Source of the DNA: a virus | Lineage: Duplodnaviria; Caudoviricetes | IMG/VR virus record: IMGVR_UViG_3300025120_000073 | Coordinates: 1-53,167 of that record | DNA length: 53,167 bases | Reading direction: 5' to 3' (one strand) | Shown: piece by piece, positions 266 to 51,730 of the stretch | How positions within the stretch are numbered: position 1 is the stretch's first letter | Layout of the letters: each line of letters opens with the position of its first letter | The notes under the pieces: generated by a model | What the model was told of the DNA's origin: nothing | The model's input: only the letters and a program-made list of their open reading frames with translations | Database searches by the model: none | Made by a program: the position numbers and the translations under genes

Positions 266-917
266 TGTTCTCGTCTTTGCTGTATCCCTCTTCGCCATCT
301 CTATAACCGTCTTGTTGCAGTAAGCCACCCACTTTAGTAAAGGCTTGCATAGCGAGCTGATGTTGTTTTCTATACTCGTTCATAAGATCTGTATCGCCCT
401 TCATAAACGAATATGCTTCTAGTAATGAGCCGTAAAGCAAAGCTGTTTCGGCATTGTCACCTAACCATGTTGTACCTGCTGTAACAATAGATGGTGGATC
501 GTAATAGTAGTTTATTTGAGCAAGATACGCAGCATTTGGCGTTGGCGCTAATATAAAAAAGCCCGGTGAGGTAGTAGTGCCTCCCACAAACTGACCATAA
601 TACTTTGGTAATCCTGTGTCATTCGCAGGATACGCCTCCTTCATATAGGTAACATTTTTATTGAGAAGATAGCTATAATTACCACTGCCATCTGTGATGG
701 CTATAGAATACACTGCGATCATGTCTGTGGGTCTAGCTAGATATTGAGAGTTAGCAACTGTACTACCAGTAGAAGCCTTTCGAAGCTCTGGAATAAGAAC
801 CTGACGAAGTATCTTTTCTTCTGCCTGTCGAACAAACGTAGGAATATTAGCCACAAAAGAAGTCTCTGTGTTCTCCGTGTAGTCCTGTATAGCCTGTGTT
901 AACTCTGTATAGTTCAT
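258..917 (-). CDS. putative head-tail adaptor / connector protein
   Basis: 219 aa; MNYTELTQAIQDY N-terminus, LAPTPNAAY and ALLYGSLLEAY segments resemble podovirus adaptor proteins; lies in the virion operon. Confidence 0.6.
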   Translation of the reverse strand: MNYTELTQAIQDYTENTETSFVANIPTFVRQAEEKILRQVLIPELRKASTGSTVANSQYLARPTDMIAVYSIAITDGSGNYSYLLNKNVTYMKEAYPANDTGLPKYYGQFVGGTTTSPGFFILAPTPNAAYLAQINYYYDPPSIVTAGTTWLGDNAETALLYGSLLEAYSFMKGDTDLMNEYRKQHQLAMQAFTKVGGLLQQDGYRDGEEGYSKDENNV

Positions 918-923
918 TTGAAC

Positions 924-1457
924 TTATCCGTTTCTACTAAAGTTGCCGCCTCTGACGGCCTTACCCATACCACCACAGGAACCACCTTTTTGCATGTATC
1001 CCATCTTGTTACGAACAGCCGTAGGGAGTTTCTTCAAACCATTATTGCTTTCGGGAACCGACTTAAGGCTTCCACCCTCTGCTGATTTCTTTGTGGGTCT
1101 TTTTTTTGGTCTTAAAGAAGTAGTTAGGGGTATTGATTTTGGTCTAATTTTAGGTCGCAAAGATTGATTTTTTGGATCTTTTTTCTTGCGAACTTCTGCA
1201 GCTTTTCTTTTTGTATCTGCTCCTGCCTCAAGCTTTGTAAAAGTATTATTACGCCCTTTGTCTGCTGCTCTTTGAAGGCTACTGCGAGCCTTGTTGCGAA
1301 TATTGGTAAGTCCTTTAACAATAGGTTGATTTTTTATACCTCTTTTAACAGCATCAACAACTTTTTTAGTTGTGCTTTTTGAGCGCTTACCTTGCTTACC
1401 TTCCCTAGATTCCATAGTGCGCTTAGTTCTTGGTAAGTTTCTTCCTGTTTGTGCCAT
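924..1457 (-). CDS. highly basic K/R-rich virion-region protein with xxxGG motifs
   Basis: Start moved to ATG 1457 (GGAGG RBS); SAEGG and MQKGG motifs; repeated SLRPKxRP. Confidence 0.75.
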   Translation of the reverse strand: MAQTGRNLPRTKRTMESREGKQGKRSKSTTKKVVDAVKRGIKNQPIVKGLTNIRNKARSSLQRAADKGRNNTFTKLEAGADTKRKAAEVRKKKDPKNQSLRPKIRPKSIPLTTSLRPKKRPTKKSAEGGSLKSVPESNNGLKKLPTAVRNKMGYMQKGGSCGGMGKAVRGGNFSRNG

Positions 1458-1472
1458 CTTGCCCTCCAAAAA

Positions 1473-1484
1473 GTTCAATTGAAC
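1473..1484. repeat. dispersed palindrome GTTCAATTGAAC, copy 1
   Basis: Exact copy, between a TGTTAAAAT -10-like element and the RBS of 924-1457. Confidence 0.95.
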
Positions 1485-1518
1485 TTATTTTAACATGTTT
1501 AAATTTTCAAATCTACCG

Positions 1519-2373
1519 TTAAGGTGTATTCACTTGGCCTCCCATACCACTGTGGTTAGTGCAATAGTAGTGTAATGTTGGTGCGCCCGAAGCTATCACG
1601 ATCTGAGTATAAGCACCTGCGTTTCCGGGGGTTCCGCTAGTTGTAACGCCTGTTGTGTACTCCACACCACCTGAATGGGTTCCGTTTGATGTTGTTGAAA
1701 ACCTTAGTGGGTGACCACTATTACTCGAATGTGATTGATCAAATATGTAGGTATTTCCTTCGCTAAGATTTCCTGTAGGAGATTCTATACCATCGATGTA
1801 AAACTTATTACCACCACTATACCCTGTAGTTACAGTAACTGCGAAAGATTGTGCTACATTGGTAGATAAAGTAGCTACGCCTGTAGTTCCCACGGCAGAA
1901 ACACCATTTGGAAATGCAGTTATTCCTACGCCTAGTAGGGTAACCGTCCCAACCGCACCTATAGCGGCATTTGGAGCAGTTAGATTTGCGCTATATGTAT
2001 TAGCCACAACAGAGCCAACAGAAGATGAGGCTGAAGAACCTGTAACGTTCACCACGCCCTCATCGAAACTTATGGCAACTCTACCGACAGCTCCTGTCAT
2101 AAATTGAGCAGGGTTCCATACAGGAGAAAATCCAAACAACTGTCTGCTTTCTTCTAAAGACCTATCTGGCCTAGCGTGTGCAAGACTTTGAGGATCAAAT
2201 ATTCTAACCCTGCCCAAAAAGTTTTGAGGATGATCGCCATCAGCAACATCCCGACCAACTCTTAGTCCAGTCTTTACGCCATTCTTGAACTCATCAACAA
2301 GCTCATTCAGCGGATACCTGAAGCCAGTTCTGTCGCAGAAACCGAAAGCATATTTACTTCTAGCAGTTGTCAT
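1519..2373 (-). CDS. virion structural protein with C-terminal cupredoxin-like domain
   Basis: N-terminal CDRTGFRY..HPQ block, S/T/G/V repeats, C-terminal GHPLRF...YYCTNHSGMG. Confidence 0.7.
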   Translation of the reverse strand: MTTARSKYAFGFCDRTGFRYPLNELVDEFKNGVKTGLRVGRDVADGDHPQNFLGRVRIFDPQSLAHARPDRSLEESRQLFGFSPVWNPAQFMTGAVGRVAISFDEGVVNVTGSSASSSVGSVVANTYSANLTAPNAAIGAVGTVTLLGVGITAFPNGVSAVGTTGVATLSTNVAQSFAVTVTTGYSGGNKFYIDGIESPTGNLSEGNTYIFDQSHSSNSGHPLRFSTTSNGTHSGGVEYTTGVTTSGTPGNAGAYTQIVIASGAPTLHYYCTNHSGMGGQVNTP

Positions 2374-3047: not shown

Positions 3048-3053
3048 TTTATC

Positions 3054-3299: not shown

Positions 3300-3301
3300 T
3301 G

Positions 3302-3553: not shown

Positions 3554-3556
3554 TGT

Positions 3557-8015: not shown

Positions 8016-8027
8016 GTTCAATTGAAC
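8016..8027. repeat. dispersed palindrome, copy 2
   Basis: Exact copy, intergenic, upstream of the capsid genes. Confidence 0.95.
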
Positions 8028-9901: not shown

Positions 9902-10102
9902 TTAGCTTTCAATATATCTTTTTTCAATTTCCGATAAATCTTCTTCTATAATTCTAAAAGCTTCGTACTTTCCTGTTAGCTTGACGTAATCTTCTTGCGT
10001 TTTAGCACCGCCCTCAGCAAGAAAAAGTTCAATTGAACTTTTGTATTCAGCTATCTTACCTTTGATTACTAGAATTAATGGATCAGTCACTGGATTTATC
10101 AA
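9902..10102 (-). CDS. small hypothetical protein after the portal gene
   Basis: 66-aa helical ORF overlapping the portal end; contains a palindrome copy encoding SSIE. Confidence 0.7.
   Translation of the reverse strand: MINPVTDPLILVIKGKIAEYKSSIELFLAEGGAKTQEDYVKLTGKYEAFRIIEEDLSEIEKRYIES
10027..10038. repeat. dispersed palindrome, copy 3
   Basis: Exact copy extending to a 20-bp palindrome; in a CDS as SSIE. Confidence 0.95.
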
Positions 10103-14158: not shown

Positions 14159-14278
14159 CGCGTGTAATATATAATATATATATAATAATTAATATATATA
14201 TAATCTCTCTCTTTAAGAGAGAGATATATTAATATATAATATATATAATATAATATATATATATACTAGGGAGGGGTA
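14159..14278 (+). repeat. AT-rich element with (TC)n/(GA)n palindrome, copy A
   Basis: CGCGTGTAATAT..(TA)n..ATCTCTCTCTT-T-AAGAGAGAGAT (14203-14225)..(TA)n..AGGGGTA; inverted homologue at 25211-25306. Confidence 0.8.
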
Positions 14279-14497: not shown

Positions 14498-14509
14498 GTT
14501 CAATTGAAC
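14498..14509. repeat. dispersed palindrome, copy 4
   Basis: Exact copy at the terS stop codon. Confidence 0.95.
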
Positions 14510-15287: not shown

Positions 15288-15334
15288 TTAAACCCACATT
15301 AAAAGTTCATTTGAACCTTCTTTAATCTTTAGGG

Positions 15335-18424: not shown

Positions 18425-18436
18425 GTTCAATTGAAC
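18425..18436. repeat. dispersed palindrome, copy 5
   Basis: Exact copy between a terminator and the VWA gene RBS. Confidence 0.95.
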
Positions 18437-20605: not shown

Positions 20606-20617
20606 GTTCAATTGAAC
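20606..20617. repeat. dispersed palindrome, copy 6
   Basis: Exact copy between a terminator T-run and the next RBS. Confidence 0.95.
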
Positions 20618-23080: not shown

Positions 23081-23092
23081 GTTCAATTGAAC
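23081..23092. repeat. dispersed palindrome, copy 7
   Basis: Exact copy between two convergent terminators. Confidence 0.95.
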
Positions 23093-23369: not shown

Positions 23370-25138
23370 AAGTCAATATCCAAATCTAAATCATGTGCTA
23401 TTGACGCAACACTTGTCGCGTAAGGTAGGTTGTATGTGCTTGTGGGGCTATCAAAAGATAGCTCAGTATCACCCTGCTTTCCCGCCCAAGAGAAGCGGCA
23501 TTTCCACACAATTATTTTTGATAAAGAAGAATGTACAGGATCAGGTCTGTGTACCGTAAGGCCAACATCAGCCTTAGCAAACCAAGCGGCTGACCCAGAT
23601 ATGTCATACCCTTTCGGGGCAGGTACTTCTCCATTACTATCACGCATCATCTTTGTTGGGTGTGCCACAAACCATAGATGTATCCCGTGCGCTTGTGCAA
23701 AAACTCTTAATCGTGTCAAAACATCTGATACCCATTCTGTTTCAGAAGTATCTGATTTATCCTTCTGAATATAATTATAAGGGTCAATGATTGCTCCCCT
23801 TATTCCATGCCGTAAAACGGCAACCTTCAATCGCTCGATAATGCTATCAACAGATGATAAAGTTCCATCAGCTTGATAGAGAAAAGAAAAGTTCGATTGA
23901 ACAAATTGCTTTCCCCCCTCCATTTCTTCTTTTGTCATTCTTGGTGTTTTACCATCAAAGAAAGGCAGTCGTAAAAACTTACTTATCAGCTTGGCAATGT
24001 GTATTCGTGGCTCGTTTTCGAAACTGCAAATTGCAAACTTCCATCCCTCACGCTCCGCCAAGTTTACCATTAATTGATCTATAAATTCTGATTTGCCAGA
24101 GCTTGGGTGACCAGTCACTACCGTAAGTTGACCCTCAACAATTGAATACAATTCGTCTACATTTTTGTAGCCAGTTGATACACCTGAACCCACCCCTTTC
24201 TCATAGATCTCATCAACGTCCTCAAAGAAATGCTTCGCGTCAAAAAGACCTGCAACAGGCCAAGGTGACGCCCCAGTAATCAGGCTATCCACACCGTCTT
24301 TACCGTGCTTCAATAAGACATCGTTGGCGTCCTTACAGCCCTCTGGATAATGAATTTTAAAAACTTTATCCTTACCAATGCGCCTTGCAATTTCTTCAGC
24401 CATAGCTTGACCTGCATCATCAGCGTCAGTTGCGATTATAATTTTTCCTGCCTCATCAATTTGCTTCTTCGCGTTCCATAAGAACTTGAATTTATTATCT
24501 TCTTTCGGATCAACTTGATTTTCGGCAACCTTCATTACTGCACCATTTGGAACAGAAACAGAGCTTGTATACCCTGATTCGATAAGTGCCAACGCATCCA
24601 TTTCTCCTTCGCAAATTATAAGATCTTTGCCTTTCTCAACGTTATCAATGTTAAAAAAGGTTTGAGGCGCACCGTTGCAGGAAAAACCTTTTCCTTCAAT
24701 CGATCTAATTTTTTGAGCGTAATCTTCACCCTTATTTGTGTATGGAAAAAGTATACAATCAACTTCTGCTTTAGCAGATTGTATATAATTTTTAGCGTAT
24801 TTTAGATTTACTTTTTTGGCGGTCTCTTCCGAGATGCCCCTGTGACGCAGAAAGCTTATCGCGTTCTCGCCAAGTGGAGATGTCTCAATTTTTTTTGCAA
24901 CGGACACTACTTCTACCCTTCTCTGAGCTTTGATTTGTGGTAACTCATCACGCAAAGGAACAATGCCGTTCATACCGCAGTGCCAACAATGGTACAGCGC
25001 CTTATCGCCATCTATCCTAAATGATAAAGTCTTTTCGTTTTTCTTTTTGCGGCTGTGACCACAGCTTGGGCATGATATTTTATATTGACCTTGACCTAAC
25101 CTGTTAGCTTCACCGCGCAGTTCTTGTTCTACTTGCAC
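23366..25138 (-). CDS. Twinkle/T7 gp4-like DNA primase-helicase
   Basis: Zn finger CPSC..CWHC; TOPRIM CEGEMD and DADDAG; KDAND; Walker A GHPSSGKS; IIDPYN, VAHPTK, YDISGSA. GTG start at 25138 preferred (AGGA RBS). Confidence 0.92.
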   Translation of the reverse strand: MQVEQELRGEANRLGQGQYKISCPSCGHSRKKKNEKTLSFRIDGDKALYHCWHCGMNGIVPLRDELPQIKAQRRVEVVSVAKKIETSPLGENAISFLRHRGISEETAKKVNLKYAKNYIQSAKAEVDCILFPYTNKGEDYAQKIRSIEGKGFSCNGAPQTFFNIDNVEKGKDLIICEGEMDALALIESGYTSSVSVPNGAVMKVAENQVDPKEDNKFKFLWNAKKQIDEAGKIIIATDADDAGQAMAEEIARRIGKDKVFKIHYPEGCKDANDVLLKHGKDGVDSLITGASPWPVAGLFDAKHFFEDVDEIYEKGVGSGVSTGYKNVDELYSIVEGQLTVVTGHPSSGKSEFIDQLMVNLAEREGWKFAICSFENEPRIHIAKLISKFLRLPFFDGKTPRMTKEEMEGGKQFVQSNFSFLYQADGTLSSVDSIIERLKVAVLRHGIRGAIIDPYNYIQKDKSDTSETEWVSDVLTRLRVFAQAHGIHLWFVAHPTKMMRDSNGEVPAPKGYDISGSAAWFAKADVGLTVHRPDPVHSSLSKIIVWKCRFSWAGKQGDTELSFDSPTSTYNLPYATSVASIAHDLDLDIDL

Positions 25139-26594: not shown

Positions 26595-27133
26595 GCGATA
26601 ATTTAAAATTTATGAGCGAGAAGTTAACAACCGCTGTGAGGGCATTAACAAAAGCCCAGAAGGAATTTAATACACCTGAAAAGGATGCTACCAATGGATA
26701 CCTTGGTAACAAATATGCTAGTTTAAAAAGTTGTTTAAACACACTTAAACCTACTTTGCACGACAACGGCTTTGCACTTACTCAAGAAGGTGGCAAGGAT
26801 GAGTTTGGTCATTTTATAGATACAAAGTTTATTCATGAAACAGGTGATTCTTTTTCGAGTAGAATCTATCTTGAATTAGATAAAAGTAATATGCAGGGCG
26901 TTGGAAGCGCAGTGACATACGCAAAGAGATACGGCTTATTGAGTTTAGCCGCTATGGAGCCAGATGAAAATCCTGATGATGATGATGCAAATAAGGCATC
27001 AGGAACTAAACCTAAAAAAAGTTCAATTGAACAAAAAGCCGAGAAGATCCCCGCTGCCGGGCAGCAATCTTCAGGGAATTTACCCGAAAAAAAAGAACAA
27101 CCTGCGCCTGAAATTGATGGCTTAGATTTTTAA
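26591..27133 (+). CDS. ERF-family single-strand annealing recombinase
   Basis: KYASL, QGVGSAVTYAKRYGLLSLA, DDDAN. Confidence 0.88.
   Translation: MSDNLKFMSEKLTTAVRALTKAQKEFNTPEKDATNGYLGNKYASLKSCLNTLKPTLHDNGFALTQEGGKDEFGHFIDTKFIHETGDSFSSRIYLELDKSNMQGVGSAVTYAKRYGLLSLAAMEPDENPDDDDANKASGTKPKKSSIEQKAEKIPAAGQQSSGNLPEKKEQPAPEIDGLDF
27021..27032. repeat. dispersed palindrome, copy 8
   Basis: Exact copy in the ERF linker as SSIE. Confidence 0.95.
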
Positions 27134-28890: not shown

Positions 28891-29296
28891 AGTTAGAAGT
28901 AACGCTATGAATTTTGAGGCAGTAAAGGTTTCAATGCAACAAAATAAAGATGGAGTTATGTTAAGATTAGCTGTGCATCCAAATGACTGCCCATCTGATT
29001 TACACACAGATTGGGTTGGGAGCCGCTATATGGTCGCTATGGTTAAGCTAAACGATCAAGATGAGATAGAGACCAGACAGAACGAACAAGCCATACAGAG
29101 GATCATATCGTCCTGTGGGTTACTATGTAGGGAGATAGATTTCCAGACCTACCTTGGCGTTGACGATGAAGATTCCGCTGTAAGTATGATTAGAGAGAAG
29201 TGTGGAATATCTTCTAGAACAGAATTTAGAGACAATGTAACTGCTAGAGAAAAATTTATTGAAATCCGTGAGGAGTATAAGAAATGGACGAAGTAG
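28883..29296 (+). CDS. hypothetical protein
   Basis: GGAGG RBS; FEAVKVSM, CGISSRTE. Confidence 0.75.
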   Translation: MSEVRSNAMNFEAVKVSMQQNKDGVMLRLAVHPNDCPSDLHTDWVGSRYMVAMVKLNDQDEIETRQNEQAIQRIISSCGLLCREIDFQTYLGVDDEDSAVSMIREKCGISSRTEFRDNVTAREKFIEIREEYKKWTK

Positions 29297-29469
29297 AAGA
29301 TAGGTACATGAACACTGTTGAGCTTAGGAACTACATGTCTGTTTCTAAAGCAACCCTGTGGAGAATTATGAATAATGATGATAAAATGCCGAAACCTTTT
29401 AAGGTTGGCGAACGTGGTGTACGTTGGAGAAAATCAGAGATAGACCAATGGTTAGAGGACACTAGGTAG
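29284..29469 (+). CDS. AlpA/excisionase-like winged-HTH DNA-binding protein
   Basis: YMNTVELRNYMSVSKATLWR..MPKPFKVGERGVRWRKSEIDQWL. Confidence 0.85.
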   Translation: MDEVEDRYMNTVELRNYMSVSKATLWRIMNNDDKMPKPFKVGERGVRWRKSEIDQWLEDTR

Positions 29470-29550: not shown

Positions 29551-29562
29551 GTTCAATTGAAC
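29551..29562. repeat. dispersed palindrome, copy 9
   Basis: Exact copy; supplies the TGA stop of the giant gene. Confidence 0.95.
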
Positions 29563-32500: not shown

Positions 32501-35500
32501 TTTTTACCTCAAAAGCACCATTAGGAGCCTCTCTGTCTTTAACTAGAACCAATGTTAAAGGTGGAGATACCTCTGGTGTGTTTCGTGTCCATTGTAATAC
32601 AGCAGTGGGTCTTCCGTTATCTATCTCGGTAGAAAGCTCAACTCCCTCTGGATCGCTTTTAAATCCCTGACGTTTAAATTTCTCAAGGATGTCTATAATT
32701 GCTTTTTGAACTGGTCTTGGGTACTTACTATAGTTGGAGTATCTCTTAAGCTCTCCTTCGTGTCTTCTATCTAAAATGTGCCTAAGCCCAGTGCCAACTC
32801 CTATTCCAGATACTTCTGTATTTTCCCCTGCTCGAAGAAACACTGGTTTTTTATTTATAAATCCATGAGCATTAGATCTTATATCATCGGGATCGAGATC
32901 AGGTCTCTTCATAATTGTCTTAGGCTCTATGTTACCTAAAGAAAAAGATGTAGATTCAACAGCTTGAGTATCTGATGTAAGGTCTTCAATTATTTGTGCT
33001 TGTTGTTCAGTAAAAGCGGAAGGTTCAATTGAACTTTCTTCTTTTGCTACTGCAGGATCAATGTCTTTTGTAATATTTGTATCAGCAAAATTTATTATCT
33101 TATCTGGTGAAAAATCACTTTCAACTTCTTCTGCACCATTAAAGTATTTAAGTTCTGCTCTTATACTTGGAACATCAAACTCTGAACCAACAGCAACTCT
33201 TGTATTACCTTCTATTATATAAGGCTGTCCTCTGTGATTAACTCCAACCACGATGGCACTACCACCGTACTGACCATCTGCTTGTTCAGGATCAAATCCT
33301 TCTTTAGAAACTTTTTCTCTAAGAGCTTGATACCTTGCATCTGATCCAGATCTAACCTCATCATTTGCTCCAGTTAGAGTACGAAGAAAAGATGTTTTTA
33401 TAAATAAAGGTTTTTTCTCAAAATCCATTCCCATAACAGCAGTTATTGGGCCAGTTAAAAGTTTTCCAACAGCACCATCAGGATCTCCTGCAGCAGCTTC
33501 TTCTGCTATTTTTTGTTTTCTTAAAATATATTCTTCGTTACCATCTCGAACTGATGGATTGTCTTGTCTGTAGCCAAACTTTTCACGAGCTACTATAAAT
33601 CCTTCTCTGTCTGCTGAGGTGAGCCTTGATCCTGTTGTTGCTTCGGAGCCGAGGCTGTATCTTCTGTCGAGGTCTGAGTTCCCTCTTCTAGAGGCGTCCT
33701 TGCTTTTTCCAGTCCTCTCATCGCTTCTAAGAACTGAGCCATTGGATTTTGCATCTTCATACTCCCTTGCTAATTTATCTACAGAGCCTCTGTCTATTTC
33801 ATCAACCCTTTCAAACCAAGGGATGTCGGCTCTTGACGTTACTTTAAAATTACCTTGTTTAAATATACCTGTTTTAGAATTTTTTCTACTAGCGTCTTTA
33901 GACATAACACCAGTAAAATCTTTAAATGTTTGAGGTGTCATGTAAACCACATCACCATCTGACAAAGGATATTCTACAACAGTGGCGTTTGATCCTTTTA
34001 GGTATGTCATGTTTGATGAGAAAGTATCTGTCTTACCTTCAGTGACCCTAGTTCCTACAGTCTTTCTGTCTATGATTGCTTTCAAGGAGCCGTGATTAAC
34101 AACCTGCTCTCCTTCAATCACCCAAGTCTCCCAGTGGAACCTGCCTAGGGAAGCATCATTTGGTCTTCCAACTAATTCATAGGCTTTATTAACATTCTTA
34201 CGCATACCATTTTCAAGCATACGAGTAACAAGAATACCTTTTGGGCCTCTAAATATTCCGTTAAGACCTTCACCATTTGGCCCAATGCCATCATAAATAT
34301 TAGCTCCACCGTATCTGCCATCATCCCATAGGTGTCTGCCTTGTATTCTGTCCATCACAAGAACATCATCTTTACCTGCAACAAGAAGAATAAAGGATAA
34401 TACTTTATTATCTATTCCTGCGCCTTCTGTGTTTGAAAGAAATGTTTCTCTTATATCAGACGCTAAAACATTCTGATCTACCATTTGTTCATGAACTAAA
34501 TCAAGAGTTGTTCTGTTTGTGTTCGGAATCATTTGTGACATTGCAGAAACTAATTTAGCTGCTGCGTTTACGTTCATAGTAACTTGTTTTCCGGGTGAAC
34601 CTTCAGGAATTGCCGTGGAAACTTCAAGCATCCATCGATCAAGATCATCATCCGTCAAAGGTTCACGAACAGCTTTCTCTAACAATGGATGAGCTTGATC
34701 AATTACATCTATGTATGCTGACTCTTGTTGAACTGGCCCTGCGCCTCTTGAAAGTATTCCCCAGATAAATAAATCCAAGGTCATTCTAGGCGTAGCGTTA
34801 CCGCTGTTATATATATTTTGTAAATCTTTTACATGACCAAAGCCTTCATCCACACCCTTTCTTAACTCTGGCGTAAGAGCTTTAAGCTTCTCAGCCATAG
34901 CTTCGGGTGAAGAACTATACTGTATAGCAACAAGGGGTGGAGCAGGAATATATTCACCACCGAAAGCATCTTGCATTGCGTCCATCCAGTTTTCTACAGA
35001 ATCTGTAGCGTTTGGATGTTGCTCTAAAATTTGTTCAATTGAACTATTATTTCTTTCAGCATTACCTCTGTTGTACTTTTGCGTAATCTGTATGGTTTCT
35101 GGTCTGCCCGAACCCTCTATCAACAATTCATGCGGTAACTTATGCGCTCTAGAGCCATCTGGAGCAAACGGAAGCTTGGGAGTGAAGTTTTTAAGTGAGA
35201 AAGCTAACGCCTCAGACTCAACGTCAGCTTCTGGGTCTCCAAAATCTCTATTTAAAATCATTTGGAAAGGCTTCTTCTCAGATGAGATGATGCCTCTAGC
35301 CCCTATGTTTCCGCTTCTGATATTATCAAATATATCCTCTACACTAGATATACCTACATCGTTATTGCTTTTGACTATACTGACAAAGAAATCCTTGATG
35401 CGCTGCATAAGTGTTCGAGGCTTGCCAGATAGTTTGATTTTATTATCCGCGTAATCTCTAAACAGCTCTGCCACTGACTCTTCTTCGATAGTGGCCTCAG

Positions 35501-38314: not shown

Positions 38315-40246
38315 TTATTTCGCAGTTGCATCAAGATCGACACCTAAAGAGCCTATGCCCCCAAGTAGAGATTGAAAATATTTTTCTTTGACAGAAAGAT
38401 CTGCAACTTCTCTTTTAAGACTTTCTACTGAATTTGCTAATTGCTTCTTTTGCTCATCATCATAAATTATTCCTTCTTTTGAGGGAGAAGTCATTTCGGC
38501 TATTTTTTCCATAAGGCTAGATTTTCGTGTTTGAATATTATTTAATCTTGAAATAACATTAGTACCCGAAAGACCGCTCTTATCCTTACCTGCGGCAGTG
38601 GCTCTAGCTTGTTCTAGCTTTCTTTGAGCATCGAGTAATGTAATCTTATCAGCTCTATATGATTTTCTAGAAGCCTGAAGATCTTCCACACCTGCCATAC
38701 CCGCTTCGCCCAAAGCACCACCAAACGTAGGATTGCTAGATGACATAAGTGCTAAACCCATTTTAGCTAAAGCTAGGTATTTATCTTGCTCTCTATCTTC
38801 TTCGTTTTCTTTCAACATGTTAGCGATTTCTGATTCAAGAGAGCTAACAGCAGAATTTGGGTCGGGCTTCTTTTTTGTGGGATCAATGAATAGATCGTCA
38901 TCTATTTTATCAGCAGGTTTTAAACGCTTATCTTCAGCATCCATAGATTTTGCTATCTGCATACCTTCATCCATTAGTGATTGTTCAGCAGATAAATTAG
39001 CAAACGTGTCTCCCAAAGAATCTAAATTAGAATTTCTAGCACTTAGGATGTCAGGCATAGCTCTATTAACAGGTGTTTCAGAAGTAAATTCAGGTATATT
39101 GTCTGTAGTATCTAAATTGCTTAGTTGCTGACTTCTTAATTTACCAATATTTTCCATAGCTTCTATGCTAGGAAGACCACTTGTAGACCTCCTTGACCCT
39201 GCAATACTTTCCATATCTAAAGGATTTTGCCCTTGATCTGGATATTGAAGAGCTGTGCCTTCAAATATCGTCTTTAGATCTGGGCTTTCAATTTCTGTCT
39301 CAGGATTTGACTTAAGCATATTAGATGCAGTGTCTATATTTTCAGAACTCCCTGTGCCTGTTACATCGAAAGCTTCTACGCTTGGGCCTTCGTAAGGCTT
39401 TAAGGTAAAATTTTTGTCCTTCACTAAAGGCATTTGAGGCAGGTCTCTAAATTCATCAGGCTGCTTATCAGTGGATGCAATTGATGGCATCTGATTACCC
39501 AGTGTAAACATTGGGTCAGGGGTATTAACAGGAGCTATCTCAGACATAGGATTAAAAGTATCTAGGTTCGCAGATATATTTCCTATTCCACCAAGATCAG
39601 TAGTAACATTTGGCCCAGTGTTTAAAACAGCACTTACAATCTCAGGACTTGTTACTTCTTGCCCACGCCTCATACTGCCGCTTCTGGAAGCTTTAAAAAC
39701 TCTGCCAGAACCATCTGTGAGGTATCTTTGACCCTCGTACACAACTTCTCTAGTTGGGCTACCTGCTGTTGCCATCTTAACAACGCCACCATCAGCTTTC
39801 TTTTCAACAGGTCTGTAGTCCCCACCAAAGTTAATCATTTCTGCGATAGACTTGCCGCCAGTAGCTTCCCTAACTTCTTCTTCTTCATCAGCACCTATAC
39901 TTCTTAGGTATGCCAACAGCATATCCATTCTATTGCGAGATGGCTTTCCACCCTTTTCCATCATCTCGACACCATCATTTTGTTCAATTGAACTTTTTGG
40001 AGCCATAGATCTAGCCATGTCCATTATGCCGCCTTGAGGTACACCTGCTGCAGAAACTACTTCTTGAGCAACTGTAGGTTGGTTTTGAGCTTGCCGACCT
40101 TCTATGTCTTGCTTCATTCGGTTGCGTCTGCCTAGCTCTGTAAGAACCAGAAACTGAGGAACCATCCCAGATGGCTTATTTATTTCACCAACTAGCTGCT
40201 GTTCAGAAAAGTTTTTAAGAGTGTCTTGTACTTCAACTATGTTCAT
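38315..40246 (-). CDS. putative internal virion / DNA ejection protein
   Basis: 643 aa, low complexity; LALAKMGLALMS..FGGALGEAG; between the pilot-like gene and the giant gene. Confidence 0.6.
   Translation of the reverse strand: MNIVEVQDTLKNFSEQQLVGEINKPSGMVPQFLVLTELGRRNRMKQDIEGRQAQNQPTVAQEVVSAAGVPQGGIMDMARSMAPKSSIEQNDGVEMMEKGGKPSRNRMDMLLAYLRSIGADEEEEVREATGGKSIAEMINFGGDYRPVEKKADGGVVKMATAGSPTREVVYEGQRYLTDGSGRVFKASRSGSMRRGQEVTSPEIVSAVLNTGPNVTTDLGGIGNISANLDTFNPMSEIAPVNTPDPMFTLGNQMPSIASTDKQPDEFRDLPQMPLVKDKNFTLKPYEGPSVEAFDVTGTGSSENIDTASNMLKSNPETEIESPDLKTIFEGTALQYPDQGQNPLDMESIAGSRRSTSGLPSIEAMENIGKLRSQQLSNLDTTDNIPEFTSETPVNRAMPDILSARNSNLDSLGDTFANLSAEQSLMDEGMQIAKSMDAEDKRLKPADKIDDDLFIDPTKKKPDPNSAVSSLESEIANMLKENEEDREQDKYLALAKMGLALMSSSNPTFGGALGEAGMAGVEDLQASRKSYRADKITLLDAQRKLEQARATAAGKDKSGLSGTNVISRLNNIQTRKSSLMEKIAEMTSPSKEGIIYDDEQKKQLANSVESLKREVADLSVKEKYFQSLLGGIGSLGVDLDATAK
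39982..39993. repeat. dispersed palindrome, copy 12
   Basis: Exact copy in the 643-aa gene as SSIE. Confidence 0.95.
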
Positions 40247-42634: not shown

Positions 42635-42646
42635 GTTCAATTGAAC
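42635..42646. repeat. dispersed palindrome, copy 13
   Basis: Exact copy just upstream of the GGAG RBS of the ejection cluster. Confidence 0.95.
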
Positions 42647-45546: not shown

Positions 45547-46137
45547 TCAGCCTTTACCTATAGATATTAAAAAAGCTTCTGGATTATGTTGCTCAGCAAC
45601 ATTTGGTATGTGAGCGTAACATTGATCGGTAGGGCCATCTCTGTAACTAAACAATCTGGGGGCTATAAATCCTAGCCTTTCGCACAAATCCCAAGGTTCA
45701 TTTGAACCTTTCCAGACTTCTCTATCGTTTGAAAACCATTCATTTTGTGTATCAATATAATCACCATTTGGGGTTTTTCTAATTATCTTAAAAAAGGGAA
45801 TATTAGGGTATGCTTTTGTTCTTTGATGCATATAGTGTTTGATAATTGTAATATTATTGTTTTCATCCAAATAATATCCTTTTCCAAATTCAGGATTTAG
45901 ATCATCATTTTGGATGTAAATTCTATTTTCATCTGTGCCTAGGCTATCTAGATCCAACCAATGATATTGATCATCTGACGCTATGTTAGCAGTATACTCA
46001 TAGCCAAACTCTGCTGCTAAGTGCTTTGCGTGATCTTTATTAACAACACCTATTACAAGTGACGTAACTCTATTACGGCAAGCATAAACTGCTTTATGAG
46101 CTATTTTCCATTGTGTGTTTGTTAGTGTTCTAGGCAT
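45547..46137 (-). CDS. hypothetical protein, paralogue of 49692-50240
   Basis: Shared blocks such as DLDSLGTDENRIYI and GYYLDENNNITIIKHY. Confidence 0.75.
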   Translation of the reverse strand: MPRTLTNTQWKIAHKAVYACRNRVTSLVIGVVNKDHAKHLAAEFGYEYTANIASDDQYHWLDLDSLGTDENRIYIQNDDLNPEFGKGYYLDENNNITIIKHYMHQRTKAYPNIPFFKIIRKTPNGDYIDTQNEWFSNDREVWKGSNEPWDLCERLGFIAPRLFSYRDGPTDQCYAHIPNVAEQHNPEAFLISIGKG

Positions 46138-49691: not shown

Positions 49692-50240
49692 TCAATAAAC
49701 AGACACTTTTATGTAACTTTGATCTTTATCTTTTCTTTTAGAGTATAATATTAAAAAATTATTATCTGAAGCAATTTTTTCCAAGCTGTCGGCAAGTGAG
49801 CTATCGCCACCCCAGTCTGATCTAGAGCCGACAACCTCTACTTCGTCTACAGATATTACATCACCATTGGCTTCATACCTGTCTATTAAGGCATCGGTAG
49901 TATCAGTTCTTTTATATATCTTTTTTTGCACTACGTCTTTGTTACTAGAAAAGTAATATCCTAATATAGACTCATCATTAGATCTAGAGTTTAAATACAC
50001 TCTAAGTTTATCTGTTCCAATAGTACTTAGATCTACTGCGTATCTTTCTGTATTGTATATTTCTACAGGTAAGTTCCCAACCAAAGACCTTAATGTTTTT
50101 ATATTGTCAGTTACTAAAGTTACACTCTCAATTTTGTTTCTATAGCAGTATATAAGTTCTGTTGTTTTATTTAATATCTGTGAATCTAAATCCTTAGTTG
50201 ATGGATGAAGATGAGCAAATAATTTTCCTATATAAGACAT
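49692..50240 (-). CDS. hypothetical protein, paralogue of 45547-46137
   Basis: DLSTIGTDKLRVYL, GYYFSSNKDVVQKKIY, DQSY; AT-rich gene. Confidence 0.75.
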   Translation of the reverse strand: MSYIGKLFAHLHPSTKDLDSQILNKTTELIYCYRNKIESVTLVTDNIKTLRSLVGNLPVEIYNTERYAVDLSTIGTDKLRVYLNSRSNDESILGYYFSSNKDVVQKKIYKRTDTTDALIDRYEANGDVISVDEVEVVGSRSDWGGDSSLADSLEKIASDNNFLILYSKRKDKDQSYIKVSVY

Positions 50241-50246
50241 TTTATC

Positions 50247-50963
50247 TTAACTCGTTAATGTTAAAGTTCCATTAGATGTAAAAGGATGTACGTTACTACC
50301 AACAACAATTTGCACAAATCCACCCGCTCCGTTACCACCTGCGTGATTTCCTCCAGTACCTCCCGCTCCTGCAGACCCAATAGTTATCGTAAGGGTCGTG
50401 CCGCTTACAACAGTAGCTGTACCCGTTTGTCGGCTTGAGGCATCTCCACCCTCTCCTCCTCCGCCTGAACTATCGAATTTACTAGGAGAGTCTCCTCCAC
50501 CCCCCGCACCACCTGCACCGTAGTGAGATGCTGTGGCTGAAGCTCCTGCAACGCCATTGGGAGTACCTACTGGCCCTGCACCATAGTATGAAGTATCACC
50601 CTCCCTGCCTACGGGTGTATTCCAAGAAATGGTGGCATGTGTTCCACCCTGCGCTCCAGATGAAGTTATAGTTGTAAGGCCAGAAGCTGTTATACTTGAA
50701 TTTCCTCCACTCCCTGCTCTAGCAGAAGAGCCATAGCCATCTTCTAAGCCGTAGCCTCCACCTCCACCTCCACCTATAATTTCGTAAGTAAAACTTACAG
50801 CGTTTGCTGTACCATAGAAATCACTTACAGAAATAGTATTACCAGAAGCAGGTATGCCCGAAGCGGCAGAAAAGTACTCAGATATATTTATAGGATTAGT
50901 ACCCCCAAACTCACCTTGAATTTGGTTAAGGCTTAGTGAGTTTCCAGATGATGGCAGAGCCAT
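50247..50963 (-). CDS. glycine-rich tail-fibre adhesin-like protein
   Basis: MALPSSGNSLSLNQI N-terminus; IIGGGGGGG, GAGGAGGGG, ITIGSAGAGG, GGNGAGGFV. Confidence 0.7.
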   Translation of the reverse strand: MALPSSGNSLSLNQIQGEFGGTNPINISEYFSAASGIPASGNTISVSDFYGTANAVSFTYEIIGGGGGGGYGLEDGYGSSARAGSGGNSSITASGLTTITSSGAQGGTHATISWNTPVGREGDTSYYGAGPVGTPNGVAGASATASHYGAGGAGGGGDSPSKFDSSGGGGEGGDASSRQTGTATVVSGTTLTITIGSAGAGGTGGNHAGGNGAGGFVQIVVGSNVHPFTSNGTLTLTS

Positions 50964-51700
50964 TAGGGAGACCCAAAGGCTGTCACATCATTTGCGGCTA
51001 CTGTGGCTCCCGAAGATGATATACTATACTTAACAACACCGTTGTGAGCAAAAACCAATTTACCCCCTACCTCATCTATAGTCCACGCTCCAAAGTCTAC
51101 TAGACCCGCCTGAACTTCACCGCCACTTCCGTAGATAACAGCTTTTGAGCCAACAACAGTGTTTACCACCGCCCCATCTAAAAGGTTTAAGTCTGCGGCT
51201 TCTAATGAGGCGCTAACACCGTCTAAGGTATTAAGTTCTGCAGCAGAGGATGTAACAGCAGTTCCGTTTTGTTTAAGCTGACCTGCTTGCGAGTCGTCTA
51301 TAAGATTAACAACATCATTACTACCGTCAGCATATATGATTGCAAAAGAACCCGTGGCTACGCTCGCTGTAGTCGCTCCAGATCCTTGAGTAAATGTAAC
51401 TGTTTTGGTTGCATCGTTCTTTACATAGTAAACCTTCTGTGCATCTGCGGGGAGTATGCTGATAGTATGAGTTGCTGCTAGAGTTCCGCTACAAAGAAGG
51501 ACTTTGTTTTGCCCGTCTGATGTTGAACCATTATTTGTTGTAAGATTACTAGATGTTCCTGAAAGGCTCAACGAAACAACGCCATTAATTGCGCGATCAA
51601 GTATATCACTATTTGTATTTACGGTTATACCCCAAGAACCAGACTGCTCACCCTGTGCGGGCTTCTCTATACCCGTGTTCGTTGTGAATGTACTAGGCAT
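50963..51700 (-). CDS. putative tail fibre protein
   Basis: MPSTFT..GEQSGSWGITVNTN..LDRAING N-terminus; SAAELNTLDG repeats; DVTAFGSP end. Confidence 0.65.
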   Translation of the reverse strand: MPSTFTTNTGIEKPAQGEQSGSWGITVNTNSDILDRAINGVVSLSLSGTSSNLTTNNGSTSDGQNKVLLCSGTLAATHTISILPADAQKVYYVKNDATKTVTFTQGSGATTASVATGSFAIIYADGSNDVVNLIDDSQAGQLKQNGTAVTSSAAELNTLDGVSASLEAADLNLLDGAVVNTVVGSKAVIYGSGGEVQAGLVDFGAWTIDEVGGKLVFAHNGVVKYSISSSGATVAANDVTAFGSP

Positions 51701-51718
51701 GTTACTCTCCTATAAAAA

Positions 51719-51730
51719 GTTCAATTGAAC
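51719..51730. repeat. dispersed palindrome, copy 14
   Basis: Exact copy just upstream of the AGGAG RBS of the tail fibre gene. Confidence 0.95.

What the first reader, a model, noticed from the sequence alone, without database searches (positions are those of the whole stretch)
912..51730. Genome-wide array of the 12-bp palindrome GTTCAATTGAAC: a candidate phage genome-marking system
Seen: 14 exact copies starting at 1473, 8016, 10027, 14498, 18425, 20606, 23081, 27021, 29551, 33023, 35033, 39982, 42635 and 51719. One-mismatch copies at 912, 15305, 45696 (GTTCATTTGAAC) and 23891 (GTTCGATTGAAC); a two-mismatch copy at 7685. Most are flanked by A/T tracts (AAAAG...CTTTT). My rough estimate at ~40% GC is about 0.01 chance copies per 53 kb. 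Exact copies are never closer than ~2 kb, mostly 2-5 kb apart, and occur in early, replication and late modules, inside and between genes. Known: ordinary operators cluster at promoters, whereas evenly dispersed palindromes are typical of chromosome-organisation sites (parS/ParB, matS/MatP, SlmA and Noc sites). Inference: a dimeric protein marks the whole phage genome for compaction, protection, segregation, ejection/packaging or global silencing. In-window binder candidates: the HTH-like 22515-22847, AlpA-like 29284-29469, TerS, or the wHTH/ParB-like segments of the giant protein; a host factor is also possible.
Basis: partly seen in the sequence, partly recalled or inferred. Interest (0 to 1): 0.92.

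Follow-up and report, generated by a model that had tools for sequence, protein, structure and literature searches.

The report
Dispersed palindrome array in marine phage
One short palindromic DNA word is repeated at gene boundaries all along this phage genome and its many relatives, most likely as the landing site of an unidentified phage protein, which resembles unexplained repeat arrays seen in a few other phages.

Summary
There are 14 exact GTTCAATTGAAC copies and none in 100 shuffles. The smallest gap is 2010 bp (P=7.5e-5). Nine of 14 copies lie in the 6.2% non-coding DNA (P=2e-8).

The 12-mer is the core of an 18-22 bp dyad element, AAAGTTC-N4-GAACTTT. All 80 of 80 related IMG/VR loci fetched with a VWA-protein profile carry it. 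Inner bases differ by lineage. The cultured phage Pag-Yong1 (68% GC) has GGTTCAG-S-CTGAACC.

In a 6.4 Mb Pseudomonas MAG holding a relative, the element is not enriched outside the phage region. Structural-module relatives with other replication modules lack it.

Sites follow stop codons or terminators. About a third lie 20-27 nt before a start codon. Others lie inside long genes at non-homologous positions.

The spacer is strictly N4, and arm mismatches are not wobble-biased. Best reading, about 0.4: duplex-DNA sites for a phage-encoded dimer acting after transcription initiation. The binder was not identified. No ParB, integrase, sigma factor or RNA polymerase was found.

The closest published analogue is the unexplained 17-bp repeat of Cluster O mycobacteriophages (PMC4351075).

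The parts
912..923 (.). One-mismatch copy GTTCATTTGAAC. On the minus strand its centre is the ATG (917-915) of the SU10-adaptor-like gene 258-917. It lies directly after the stop of gene 924-1457.
   Evidence: The same variant sits at the same gene start in G001 and G006.
1473..1484 (.). Exact copy. On the minus strand it reads motif-TTTTT-GGAGGG-CAAG-ATG, 15 nt before the ATG at 1457 and 34 nt after the stop of 1519-2373.
8016..8027 (.). Exact copy, intergenic. It lies 7 nt after the stop of 8035-8478 and 46 nt before the start of 7367-7969 (minus strand).
10027..10038 (.). Exact copy, 44 nt after the portal gene stop (10083). It lies inside a small conserved ORF, 9902-10102.
14498..14509 (.). 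Exact copy abutting the stop of the TerS-like gene 14509-15030, in the 404-nt gap before TerL.
   Evidence: Sites at or near the TerS/TerL junction also occur in G001, G004, G005 and G011.
15305..15316 (.). One-mismatch copy, intergenic, between 15047-15214 and 15366-15590.
18425..18436 (.). Exact copy, 12 nt after the GC-rich terminator hairpin 18385-18412 and 19 nt before the ATG of the DUF2201/VWA gene (18456).
   Evidence: A site between the AAA ATPase and VWA orthologues occurs in most related loci.
20606..20617 (.). Exact copy, 6 nt after terminator 20576-20599 and 21 nt before the ATG at 20639. It is the left border of the variable cassette 20639-22847.
23081..23092 (.). Exact copy at a convergent gene junction, between two hairpins. 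It lies 8 nt beyond the minus-strand terminator 23121-23101.
23891..23902 (.). One-mismatch copy GTTCGATTGAAC inside the primase-helicase gene 23366-25192.
27021..27032 (.). Exact copy inside the 3' part of the ERF recombinase gene 26579-27133, with A-tracts on both sides.
   Evidence: A site with similar flanks occurs in G001.
29551..29562 (.). Exact copy overlapping the stop codon (29553-29555) of the 2915-aa gene, at the convergent junction with the AlpA-like gene.
   Evidence: A site at the 3' end of the giant gene occurs in G001, G004, G005 and G006.
33023..33034 (.). Exact copy inside the giant gene, near residue 1758. It encodes SSIE.
   Evidence: Internal sites in relatives lie at non-homologous positions and in other frames.
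35033..35044 (.). Exact copy inside the giant gene, near residue 1088.
39982..39993 (.). Exact copy inside gene 38315-40246.
   Evidence: The orthologous gene carries a site in G004 and G005.
42635..42646 (.). Exact copy, 15 nt before the ATG at 42619 (motif-TTTTT-GGAG-ATTTAA-ATG on the minus strand) and 32 nt after the stop at 42679.
45696..45707 (.). One-mismatch copy inside gene 45547-46137.
51719..51730 (.). Exact copy, 18 nt before the ATG at 51700 and 8 nt after the stop at 51739 (minus strand).
29284..29469 (+). AlpA/HTH_17-like 61-aa gene. It is a candidate binder by co-occurrence only and is not demonstrated.
   Evidence: Pfam Phage_AlpA E=4e-10. The family was found in G000, G001, G003, G005 and G006, in G004 by BLAST, and is annotated in Pag-Yong1 with a motif 11 nt before its start. 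The putative recognition helix is poorly conserved among lineages that share the same half-site.

Best explanation
GTTCAATTGAAC is the core of an 18-22 bp dyad-symmetric element, (A/T tract)AAAGTTC-N4-GAACTTT(T tract). I read it as the duplex-DNA recognition site of a phage-encoded, probably dimeric, sequence-specific protein. The sites sit at cistron and operon boundaries: after stop codons and intrinsic terminators, immediately 5' of the next ribosome-binding site, at convergent gene ends, and at intervals inside very long genes. They are absent from the two divergent intergenic regions where early promoters are expected. The protein would therefore act after initiation, as a roadblock or insulator for host RNA polymerase that sets apart transcription units. 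This resembles a stoperator array, but it is symmetric and occurs in a phage with no sign of lysogeny.

Shown: the array, its conservation, its phage specificity, its anatomy and its strict spacer. Inferred: that the ligand is a protein, that it binds duplex DNA, and what binding does. The binder is not identified.
For: 1. Enrichment and conservation. There are 14 exact copies against 0 in shuffles. The loose pattern AGTT[CA]-N4-[GT]AACT occurs in 80 of 80 loci fetched with the VWA profile, at 0.14-0.66 per kb. It gives 14 pattern matches in the 60% GC phage region of a Pseudomonas MAG. The related element GTTC-N5-GAAC occurs 29 times in the 68.5% GC phage Pag-Yong1. The arms are therefore kept across 37-68% GC.

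2. Phage-encoded reader. In the 6.4 Mb MAG, 8 of 15 hits at <=1 mismatch lie in ~45 kb of phage DNA. The other 7 compare with 5 hits for the reversed control pattern. Inner bases are uniform within a genome but differ by lineage: CAATTG, AC..GT, AA..TT.

3. Duplex DNA rather than a stem. The spacer is strict: AGTTC-N4-GAACT occurs 232 times, against <=8 for every other spacer from N0 to N9, in 1.73 Mb. In G004 the seventh half-site base is C or A independently in the two arms (5 of 13 sites unpaired, read). Arm mismatches in 185 oriented sites are mostly non-wobble, with G:U-type 9 against A:C-type 5. Flanking tracts are often A..A or T..T. Predicted RNA stems are weak: -4.8 kcal/mol for the window 18-mer and -1.1 to -2.7 for the G004 and G005 types.

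4. Post-initiation role. No conserved -35 or -10 lies upstream; information is about 0 from -60 to -12 in 110 oriented sites. Three of the 5 strongest terminator-like hairpins in the window are followed within 13 nt by an exact copy. One copy lies between two convergent hairpins. No copy lies in the divergent regions near 15.6 and 25.7 kb.

5. Published analogues. Passages of PMC4351075 report that Cluster O mycobacteriophages carry 34 copies of TGTTCGGNNNCCGAACA. Its authors predict a dimeric binder acting in a process other than transcription initiation.
Against: No binder was found. The candidates give no DNA-binding fold match: the 257-aa and 137-aa families have no Foldseek hit at E<=0.001. 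The AlpA-like helix varies among lineages that share the same half-site.

A roadblock has no obvious need for the tight distance to the start codon. In 89 of 110 oriented sites the start lies 20-27 nt from the motif centre. In Pag-Yong1 the layout is stop-4 nt-motif-20 to 24 nt-ATG.

There is a modest polarity. Loop TATT occurs 30 times against AATA 7 relative to the downstream gene. By 63 gene clusters, T-rich loops number 27 against A-rich 13. This fits an element read on one strand.

The half-site spacing differs by 1 bp between the window clade (N4) and Pag-Yong1 (N5). That change is trivial for a hairpin loop but not for a dimer.

No integrase was found in 0 of 8 genomes, so there is no prophage to silence.
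Confidence: 0.4

Rival explanations
1. The element works as a hairpin in the transcript, or in extruded single-stranded DNA. It would be an intercistronic stem-loop with a conserved stem (A)GUUC/GAAC(U), recognised by a phage-encoded RNA-binding protein or endoribonuclease. It would process or stabilise cistrons, or tune translation of the gene directly downstream.
For: The position relative to the ribosome-binding site is tight: 89 of 110 oriented sites have the start codon 20-27 nt from the centre. Pag-Yong1 shows stop-4 nt-motif-20 to 24 nt-ATG at nearly every early junction. In three genomes the start codon lies in the motif centre, and in G004 two starts directly follow the motif. There is a loop polarity relative to the downstream gene, 27 against 13 clusters. 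The stem sequence is conserved while loop sequence and length vary (N4 against N5). The T-run is stronger on the downstream side.
Against: Stems are weak, -1.1 to -4.8 kcal/mol at 37 C. Mismatches are not wobble-biased, 9 against 5. Within the clade the loop length is strictly 4, 232 against <=8. Flanks are often non-complementary. Copies lie beyond terminators at convergent ends, where little RNA should exist. No nuclease or RNA-binding family was seen in the Pfam and PHROG scans of most window ORFs; roughly twenty small ORFs were not scanned.
Confidence: 0.25
2. The sites mark the genome at intervals for a DNA-level process unrelated to gene expression, such as compaction, segregation, packaging or ejection, or priming by the clade-specific primase-helicase.
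For: Spacing is more even than random in the window (P=7.5e-5 for the minimum gap), in G006 (gaps 2366-4556, CV 0.22, P<5e-5) and in G004 (CV 0.48, P=0.0066). Long genes carry internal copies at non-homologous positions and in different frames, as if a site were needed there. The element co-occurs with a primase-helicase, RusA and exonuclease module that is shared with Pag-Yong1 and absent from motif-less relatives.
Against: Spacing is not significantly regular in G001, G005 or G011. In Pag-Yong1 the density follows gene junctions, 0.3-1.4 kb apart in the early operon. No ParB_N domain was found in 0 of 5 genomes. Even spacing may simply reflect operon structure. The link to ribosome-binding sites is unexplained.
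Confidence: 0.13
3. The copies are recombination joints or the footprints of a spreading cassette. Identical short sequences at gene borders would promote module exchange, as recalled for promoter-stem-loop cassettes of T4-type phages. They may have little function of their own.
For: Variable cassettes are bracketed by copies: 912|924-1457|1473 and 20606|20639-22847|23081. Several BLASTN homology breakpoints against close relatives fall within 45 nt of a copy, at window positions 18417, 20633, 23073, 15267 and 15320. The Cluster O paper reports two deletions between repeats (PMC4351075 passages).
Against: Most breakpoints are not at copies, and breakpoints favour intergenic DNA anyway. The arms are conserved across very divergent genomes and GC contents, with a strict spacer, which argues for selection on recognition. 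No transposase or integrase was found.
Confidence: 0.08
4. The element is a promoter for an unrecognised phage RNA polymerase. An example would be a hairpin promoter read by a virion-borne polymerase hidden in the 2915-aa protein, as recalled for coliphage N4. The transcript would start just before the ribosome-binding site.
For: The terminator-motif-RBS-ATG order recurs at many junctions. The length is like that of phage polymerase promoters, and the distance to the start codon is fixed. There is a giant virion-type protein, and homologues of the MoxR+VWA gene pair occur in 825 phage records.
Against: A perfect palindrome would fire in both directions. Copies lie at convergent ends and inside genes. 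No T7-type polymerase or sigma domain was found, although the polymerase search had a silent control. The giant protein has no PDB hit by sequence or profile. Pag-Yong1 would need a promoter before almost every small early gene.
Confidence: 0.07
5. The element is a site for a host transcription factor, for example a LexA-type repressor with GTTC/GAAC half-sites, so that host physiology gates the whole phage.
For: GTTC/GAAC half-sites occur in published LexA motifs. GTTC-N7-GTTC for Alphaproteobacteria is quoted in PMC8565304 (passage). A palindromic Verrucomicrobia motif is recalled only; that paper is not held.
Against: The element is not enriched in the one available host-like genome outside the phage region, 7 hits against 5 control. 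Inner bases change with phage lineage. The same arms are kept across phages of 37-68% GC, presumably with different hosts.
Confidence: 0.03

Closest known systems
17-bp dyad repeats of Cluster O mycobacteriophages (Corndog: TGTTCGGNNNCCGAACA, 34 copies). Passages of PMC4351075 were read.
   Same: Both have tens of invariant inverted repeats with a variable A/T-rich centre. They are spread through the whole genome of a phage with no integrase and no stable lysogens. Many copies are intergenic and about a third lie in genes. The repeat is absent from the host genomes. GTTC...GAAC arms are shared. The function is unknown, and the authors predict a dimeric binder not acting on transcription initiation.
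   Different: The phages are unrelated: siphoviruses of Mycobacterium against marine or freshwater podovirus-like phages with an SU10-type portal. The spacing of the GTTC/GAAC arms differs (7 against 4 or 5). The Cluster O repeats are reported as not closely linked to translation starts. Here about a third of the copies lie 20-27 nt before a start codon.
Stoperators of Cluster A mycobacteriophages (L5 gp71). The abstract start of PMC9283540 was seen in the listing; details are recalled.
   Same: Both have many copies of one site in short intergenic spaces of lytic operons across the genome. The proposed action is to stop elongating RNA polymerase rather than to block initiation.
   Different: Stoperators are asymmetric, oriented with transcription, and bound by a monomeric immunity repressor of a temperate phage. 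Here the site is a palindrome. No integrase was found in 0 of 8 genomes, and no repressor was identified.
Start-associated sequences (SAS) of Cluster K mycobacteriophages. PMC3203893 was seen only in the listing, and it is mentioned in PMC4351075; details are recalled.
   Same: Both are repeated motifs immediately upstream of the start codons of a subset of genes, of unknown function.
   Different: SAS are recalled as asymmetric and overlapping the ribosome-binding site. Here the motif is a palindrome 5' of the site, and two thirds of the copies are not next to a start codon.
Conserved inverted repeats (CIRs) bound by the phiC31 repressor. Recalled only, from no call.
   Same: Both are highly conserved palindromic sites in many intergenic regions of one phage genome.
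   Different: CIRs serve a lysogenic repressor and are associated with phage early promoters. Neither lysogeny genes nor promoter association is seen here.
ParB/parS and the dispersed centromere sites of prophage N15. Recalled only.
   Same: Both are ~16-bp palindromes with GTT.CA-like half-sites scattered on a replicon.
   Different: No ParB_N domain was found in 0 of 5 genomes. The half-site spacing differs from the recalled parS consensus. The sites here follow gene junctions.

Membership tests
Cluster O-type dispersed dyad repeats (a descriptive class of unknown function) | More than 10 copies of an invariant inverted repeat with a variable centre, spread over the whole genome | tested here: met
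   There are 14 exact copies plus 4 one-mismatch copies across 53 kb. Relatives carry 10-16 each.
Cluster O-type dispersed dyad repeats (a descriptive class of unknown function) | Motif absent from or not enriched in the host genome | tested here: met
   This was testable only for one relative in a Pseudomonas MAG: 8 of 15 hits lie in the phage region, and the other 7 compare with 5 control hits. The window's own host is unknown.
Cluster O-type dispersed dyad repeats (a descriptive class of unknown function) | Phage not evidently temperate | tested here: met
   No Phage_integrase domain was found in 0 of 8 genomes, two of them at least 98% complete.
Stoperator array (Cluster A mycobacteriophages) | Asymmetric site with a fixed orientation relative to transcription | tested here: not met
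   The site is a perfect palindrome in the window. Relatives show only a weak loop polarity, 27 against 13 clusters.
Stoperator array (Cluster A mycobacteriophages) | Bound by the immunity repressor of a temperate phage | tested here: not met
   No integrase was found. An HTH_3 domain was present in only some genomes and absent from the window and G004.
Stoperator array (Cluster A mycobacteriophages) | Binding stops elongating RNA polymerase | not testable with these tools
   This needs transcript mapping.
ParB/parS partition or condensation system | A ParB (ParB_N) protein encoded with the sites | tested here: not met
   0 of 5 genomes had a match, while the control rang in 11 of 14 reference genomes.
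Intrinsic (Rho-independent) terminator | Stable G+C-rich stem followed by a U-run | tested here: not met
   Stems are -4.8 kcal/mol (window 18-mer) and -1.1 to -2.7 (G004 and G005 types). Pag-Yong1 copies have no T-run. True GC-rich terminators lie beside three of the copies.
N4-type hairpin promoter | A virion RNA polymerase encoded by the phage | tested here: inconclusive
   The giant protein shows only LPD38 and PHROGs of unknown function, and no PDB hit. Its fold was not predicted. The T7-type polymerase search had a silent control.
N4-type hairpin promoter | Sites confined to the early region, upstream of early genes | tested here: not met
   Copies lie in all modules, inside genes and at convergent gene ends.
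Host LexA/SOS box | Motif found upstream of host regulon genes | tested here: not met
   There is no excess in the MAG outside the phage region. Only one genome was tested, with a strict pattern.
Start-associated sequences (Cluster K) | Located a few bases upstream of start codons | tested here: inconclusive
   110 of 321 unique-context sites have an SD and a start codon on exactly one side within about 46 nt of the centre, and for 89 of them the start lies 20-27 nt away. 209 have none.

The most novel reading that the evidence does not exclude
A large, environmentally abundant clade of lytic podovirus-like phages may use one self-encoded sequence reader and a single palindrome to punctuate the whole genome. 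Every transcription or translation unit boundary would be marked, and very long genes would be marked every 2-5 kb. This would be a global layer of post-initiation control or genome architecture without lysogeny. The unexplained Cluster O repeats of mycobacteriophages, which share GTTC/GAAC arms, would be an independent instance of the same principle.
Probability: 0.25. Interest if true: 0.8.

Novelty: new variant of a known kind. Interest (0 to 1): 0.62.

Why it matters
Dispersed identical palindromes in lytic phage genomes have been described, in Cluster O mycobacteriophages, but never explained. This case shows the phenomenon is conserved across at least 80 fetched related loci and across 37-68% GC. 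The phages share structural genes with the HTVC023P-type group, which a preprint calls the most abundant known marine viral group (10.1101/2019.12.14.876532, passages).

The element also has a defined anatomy: stop or terminator, then motif, then ribosome-binding site. A cultured phage, Pag-Yong1, whose records MinM2 and Pra-JY27 are very similar, carries a sister motif. Binding assays and transcript-end mapping could therefore settle what such arrays do.

If the element is a roadblock or insulator system, it would be a compact way to partition a phage genome into expression units. It would also supply a portable part, one protein and one 18-bp site, for synthetic control of transcription.

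Tried and rejected
**Binder identification**
- Pfam and PHROG scans of most window ORFs (roughly twenty small ORFs were not scanned) gave only the AlpA-like HTH and a small zinc finger (28466-28648) as nucleic-acid binders.
- PDB sequence searches for the 257-aa, 235-aa and 137-aa proteins found nothing useful.
- The Atlas search for the 257-aa protein gave only a 0.76 lead to winged-helix clusters, below the level that means anything.
- AlphaFold models of the 257-aa family (pLDDT 78.6) and the 137-aa family (78.2) had no Foldseek PDB match at E<=0.001.
- Complex prediction with two copies of the AlpA-like protein returned 'no answer' with score 0.00. This is neither for nor against binding.

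**Covariation of binder with half-site type**
The A-type half-sites fall in essentially one clade of the VWA tree, so there is no statistical power.

**Expression data**
- The look-up of sequencing runs listed five marine RNA runs holding at most 20% of the sampled words, kept as contigs only.
I did not resend it, so I have no transcript evidence.

**Host and lifestyle**
- The genome-contig scan gave mostly short MAG contigs, and binning is unreliable for host calls.
- The 465-kb Pseudomonas MAG contig starts inside the phage. It continues into defence-like genes with no integrase seen among ten ORFs. I therefore do not claim a prophage.

**Ideas dropped**
- Sigma-70 promoter: the geometry puts the start site inside the gene, there are no -10 or -35 elements, and promoter-like sites are not above shuffles.
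- IHF, Fis, CRP and tRNA T-loop resemblances were recalled consensus comparisons only and do not fit.
- Integron attC has the opposite arm order.
- A phosphorothioation motif is too short to explain an 18-mer.

**Literature**
- The 'HTVC023P' search found 10 papers. PMC9599517 has 0 occurrences of 'palindrom', 'promoter' or 'terminator'.
- The 'Pag-Yong1/MinM2/Pra-JY27' search returned only unrelated medical papers among the 10 of 112 listed.
- 'TGTTC-N4-GAACA' returned 0 papers.
- 'Corndog' with '17 bp repeat' returned only the 2015 paper.
- I found no description of this motif. These searches are not exhaustive, and paper supplements were not seen.

Full report
**Observation.** The window is a complete IMG/VR virus record of 53,167 bp, estimated 89% complete. 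GTTCAATTGAAC occurs 14 times at exactly the coordinates given and in none of 100 dinucleotide-preserving shuffles. Within two mismatches there are 20 matches against 3.11 +/- 1.65 expected. The flanks are A/T tracts, giving a consensus AAAAAGTTCAATTGAACTTTTT. Several sites have A..A or T..T flanks rather than complementary ones. The 13 gaps between exact copies run from 2010 to 9084 bp, with CV 0.53. Random placement gives a minimum gap that large with P=7.5e-5 and a CV that small with P=0.0097. On an ORF map built, 6.2% of the window is non-coding. Even so, 9 of 14 copies lie there (P=2e-8), and a tenth overlaps a stop codon.

**What the phage is.** Pfam and PHROG scans identified the following genes.
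- An SU10-type portal, two SU10-adaptor-like proteins, TerL, TerS, a major head protein and a GroES-like protein.
- A MoxR-type AAA ATPase and a DUF2201/VWA protein.
- A primase-helicase, RusA, an exonuclease, an ERF recombinase and a DUF968/HNH protein.
- A small zinc finger and a 61-aa AlpA/HTH_17 protein.
- A 2915-aa protein whose only Pfam hit is LPD38. An alignment of giant-protein orthologues shows an invariant HExxH.

No integrase was found in 0 of 8 related genomes. No ParB_N was found in 0 of 5. No sigma region 4 was found, and no T7-type polymerase, although that last search had a silent control.

The portal is 41-43% identical to those of Pelagibacter phages HTVC023P and HTVC027P, Planktothrix phage Pag-Yong1, phage DSL-LC04 and Roseobacter phage CRP-901. 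At least 598 IMG/VR stretches encode a portal relative, and the best 80 are 72-99% identical.

**The motif in relatives.**
- The exact 12-mer occurs 22 times in 18 of those 80 portal loci, which total 690 kb.
- Whole records were fetched and scanned de novo for enriched palindromes. The results are below.

| Record | Enriched palindrome | Count | Expected |
|---|---|---|---|
| G001 | GTTC-N4-GAAC | 12 | 1.41 |
| G006 | GTTC-N4-GAAC | 12 | 0.71 |
| G004 | AAAGTT-N6-AACTTT, mostly AAAGTTAC..GTAACTTT | 11 | 0.03 |
| G005 | AGTTAA-N2-TTAACT | 11 | 0.05 |
| G003 (57% GC) | AGTTC-N4-GAACT, weak | 4 | 0.19 |
| G007 | nothing convincing | - | - |
| G002 | GTAGTGA-N-TCACTAC, a different palindrome | 9-12 | 0.01 |

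- The outer arms AAGTT...AACTT are therefore shared, while the inner bases are uniform within a genome and differ by lineage.
- A profile of the VWA protein retrieved 297 relatives. All 80 of the 80 best loci carry the loose pattern, at 0.14-0.66 per kb.
- The spacer is strict. In 1.73 Mb of clade loci, AGTTC-N4-GAACT occurs 232 times and every other spacer from N0 to N9 at most 8 times.
- A phage region of 60% GC at the start of a 465-kb contig of a Pseudomonas MAG has 14 pattern matches, such as AAAGTTCCATGGAACTTT.
- The cultured phage Pag-Yong1 (65 kb, 68.5% GC) has the same gene set: polyvalent protein, AlpA family protein, Erf, Cas4-like exonuclease, primase-helicase, VWA and MoxR. It carries a sister element, GGTTCAG-S-CTGAACC. 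GTTC-N5-GAAC occurs 29 times in the genome, against about 1 expected in the first 50 kb.
- HTVC027P, DSL-LC04 and CRP-901 share the structural module but have other replication modules, and they have no such array. CRP-7, which shares only the MoxR+VWA pair, has none either.
- The genes found in both the window and Pag-Yong1 but not in the motif-less phages are the primase-helicase, RusA, the exonuclease and a 137-aa protein (28883-29296). An AlpA-family gene is annotated in Pag-Yong1 and detected by Pfam in the window.

**Phage reader or host reader.** In the 6.4 Mb MAG, AAGTTCNNNNGAACTT with at most one mismatch hits 15 places. Eight are in the first 45 kb of the phage-bearing contig and 7 are elsewhere, against 5 for the reversed control pattern. 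With the lineage-specific inner bases, this points to a phage-encoded reader. It rests on one genome.

**Anatomy.**
- In the window, five exact copies lie 15-21 nt before a start codon, in the order motif, T-run, GGAG, ATG. These are 1473, 18425, 20606, 42635 and 51719.
- Three of the five strongest terminator-like hairpins are followed within 13 nt by a copy. One of these, 23081, sits between two convergent hairpins with no gene after it.
- The one-mismatch copy at 912 has the start codon of the adaptor gene at its centre. The same is true in G001 and G006.
- No copy lies in the two divergent intergenic regions near 15.6 and 25.7 kb.
- Positions are conserved across relatives: between the AAA and VWA genes in six genomes, at the 3' end of the giant gene in five, and around TerS. 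One clade has instead fused the AAA and VWA genes by a TGATG overlap and has no copy there.
- Of 321 unique-context sites pooled from all loci, 110 have a Shine-Dalgarno sequence plus start codon on one side only. For 89 of these the start lies 20-27 nt from the centre. Two have one on both sides and 209 on neither.
- Upstream of the motif there is no conserved -35 or -10; information is about 0 from -60 to -12. The downstream T-run is stronger than the upstream A-run.
- In Pag-Yong1 nearly every junction of the early operon reads TGA, 4 nt, motif, 20-24 nt with an SD, ATG. The TerL/portal junction reads motif-C-GGAG-N9-ATG.
- Copies inside the giant gene lie at non-homologous positions, in different frames, and encode different peptides. 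Four genomes have one about 600 codons from the start.

**Duplex DNA or hairpin.**

For duplex recognition:
- The spacer is strict.
- In G004 the seventh half-site base is C or A independently in the two arms (5 of 13 sites unpaired, read).
- Among 185 oriented near-sites, arm mismatches are mostly non-wobble (TT 41, AA 24, GA 20, CT 14, AG 12). G:U-type mismatches number 9 against A:C-type 5.
- Predicted RNA stems are weak: -4.8 kcal/mol for the window 18-mer and -1.1 to -2.7 for the G004 and G005 forms.
- Copies lie beyond terminators.

For a strand-specific, RNA-level role:
- The distance to the start codon is tight.
- There is a loop polarity: TATT 30 against AATA 7, and by 63 downstream-gene clusters, T-rich 27 against A-rich 13.
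- The window clade (N4) and Pag-Yong1 (N5) differ by one base of spacing.

I weigh the first set more heavily, but the question is open.

**The binder.**
- Families present in 22 of 22 long VWA loci are TerS, AAA, VWA, primase-helicase, RusA, exonuclease and a 94-aa protein (27390-27674).
- Nearly universal families are a 257-aa protein (20 of 22), a 235-aa protein (19), DUF968/HNH (19), the 137-aa protein (17) and the AlpA-like protein (16).
- The AlpA family is detectable in G000, G001, G003, G005 and G006, and by BLAST in G004. In Pag-Yong1 its gene starts 11 nt after a motif copy.
- The P. aeruginosa AlpA reads a 6-bp element with its C-terminal HTH as a single molecule (PMC9371919, passages). 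The putative recognition helix of the phage proteins is poorly conserved among lineages with the same half-site.
- Models of the 257-aa and 137-aa families matched no solved fold.
- The binder is therefore unknown.

**Comparison with what is known.** The closest published case is the 17-bp repeat TGTTCGGNNNCCGAACA of Cluster O mycobacteriophages. Corndog has 34 copies, many intergenic and about a third in genes. The repeat is absent from host genomes, the phages have no integrase, and the function is unknown. The authors predict a dimeric DNA-binding protein acting in a process other than transcription initiation (PMC4351075, passages). That repeat also has GTTC/GAAC arms. Stoperators of Cluster A mycobacteriophages work on elongating polymerase at many dispersed sites, but they are asymmetric, oriented, and bound by a lysogenic repressor (the abstract start of PMC9283540 was seen; the rest is recalled). 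Start-associated sequences of Cluster K phages share the link to start codons. phiC31 CIRs, N15 centromere sites, T4 promoter-stem-loop cassettes and N4 hairpin promoters are recalled analogies only. I found no description of the present motif.

**Verdict.** The finding is real and the array is a conserved, phage-specific functional element. I put about 0.4 on duplex-DNA sites for a phage-encoded dimer acting after transcription initiation, as a roadblock or insulator at unit boundaries. It is a new variant of a known but unexplained kind. Its breadth and the existence of a cultured carrier make the open question testable.

Noticed in passing
G002 (IMG/VR record reached through L138), 19979-32020: This relative has a different palindrome, GTAGTGA-S-TCACTAC. 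Its 12 copies are confined to the early or replication module, which is not homologous to the window's. Three of them cluster at 30933-31097 near the divergent control region, which looks like a classical operator set. The same genome keeps only a few GTTC-type copies, in its structural module.
   Followed up: partly
G005 (reached through L196) and G004 (reached through L194): Second over-represented words occur beside the main motif. G005 has ACTAGTTATAAC/GTTATAACTAG (8 copies, part of a longer palindrome). G004 has TATATTATAATA (8 copies).
   Followed up: no
window 14204-14224 and 25236-25258: There are two similar (TC)n...(GA)n palindromes, TCTCTCTTAAAGAGAGAGA and ATCTCTCTCTTAGAGAGAGAGAT. 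One is in the 404-nt TerS/TerL gap. The other is between the primase-helicase start and the RusA stop (25193-25272), about 0.4 kb from the divergent region. They could be origin or promoter-region elements.
   Followed up: no
L234-L237 (G011 contig C21, 1-75000): The phage-like region starts at the very beginning of a 465-kb Pseudomonas MAG contig and ends near 48.3 kb. It is followed by AAA_21, reverse transcriptase, HEPN/Toprim and DUF4917 genes and then an EAL gene. No integrase was seen among ten ORFs. It could be a prophage, an accessory defence island or a chimeric assembly.
   Followed up: partly
Phage records OL906435.1, OQ594354.1 and PP438419.1: Three records named for phages of different cyanobacteria (Planktothrix, Synechococcus, Planktothricoides) have the same length, 65,014 bp, and identical match statistics. 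Pag-Yong1 is 68.5% GC, which to my recollection is unusual for such hosts. The true host may be a co-cultured heterotroph.
   Followed up: no
window 912-1484 and 20606-23092: Poorly conserved gene cassettes are bracketed by motif copies: gene 924-1457, and genes 20639-22847. Some BLASTN homology breakpoints against close relatives fall within 45 nt of a copy.
   Followed up: partly
window 29553-38300: The 2915-aa protein has an invariant HExxH (residues 876-880 in the alignment of seven orthologues) and a highly conserved C-terminal third with LPD38. This matches a polyvalent injected protein. Homologues of the neighbouring MoxR+VWA pair occur in 825 phage records (Escherichia, Vibrio, Pseudomonas and others).
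   Followed up: partly
window 43280-43684 and 42679-43323: A staphylococcal-nuclease-like gene and a chitinase class I / peptidoglycan-binding-like gene (probably a lysin) lie in the variable late region.
   Followed up: no
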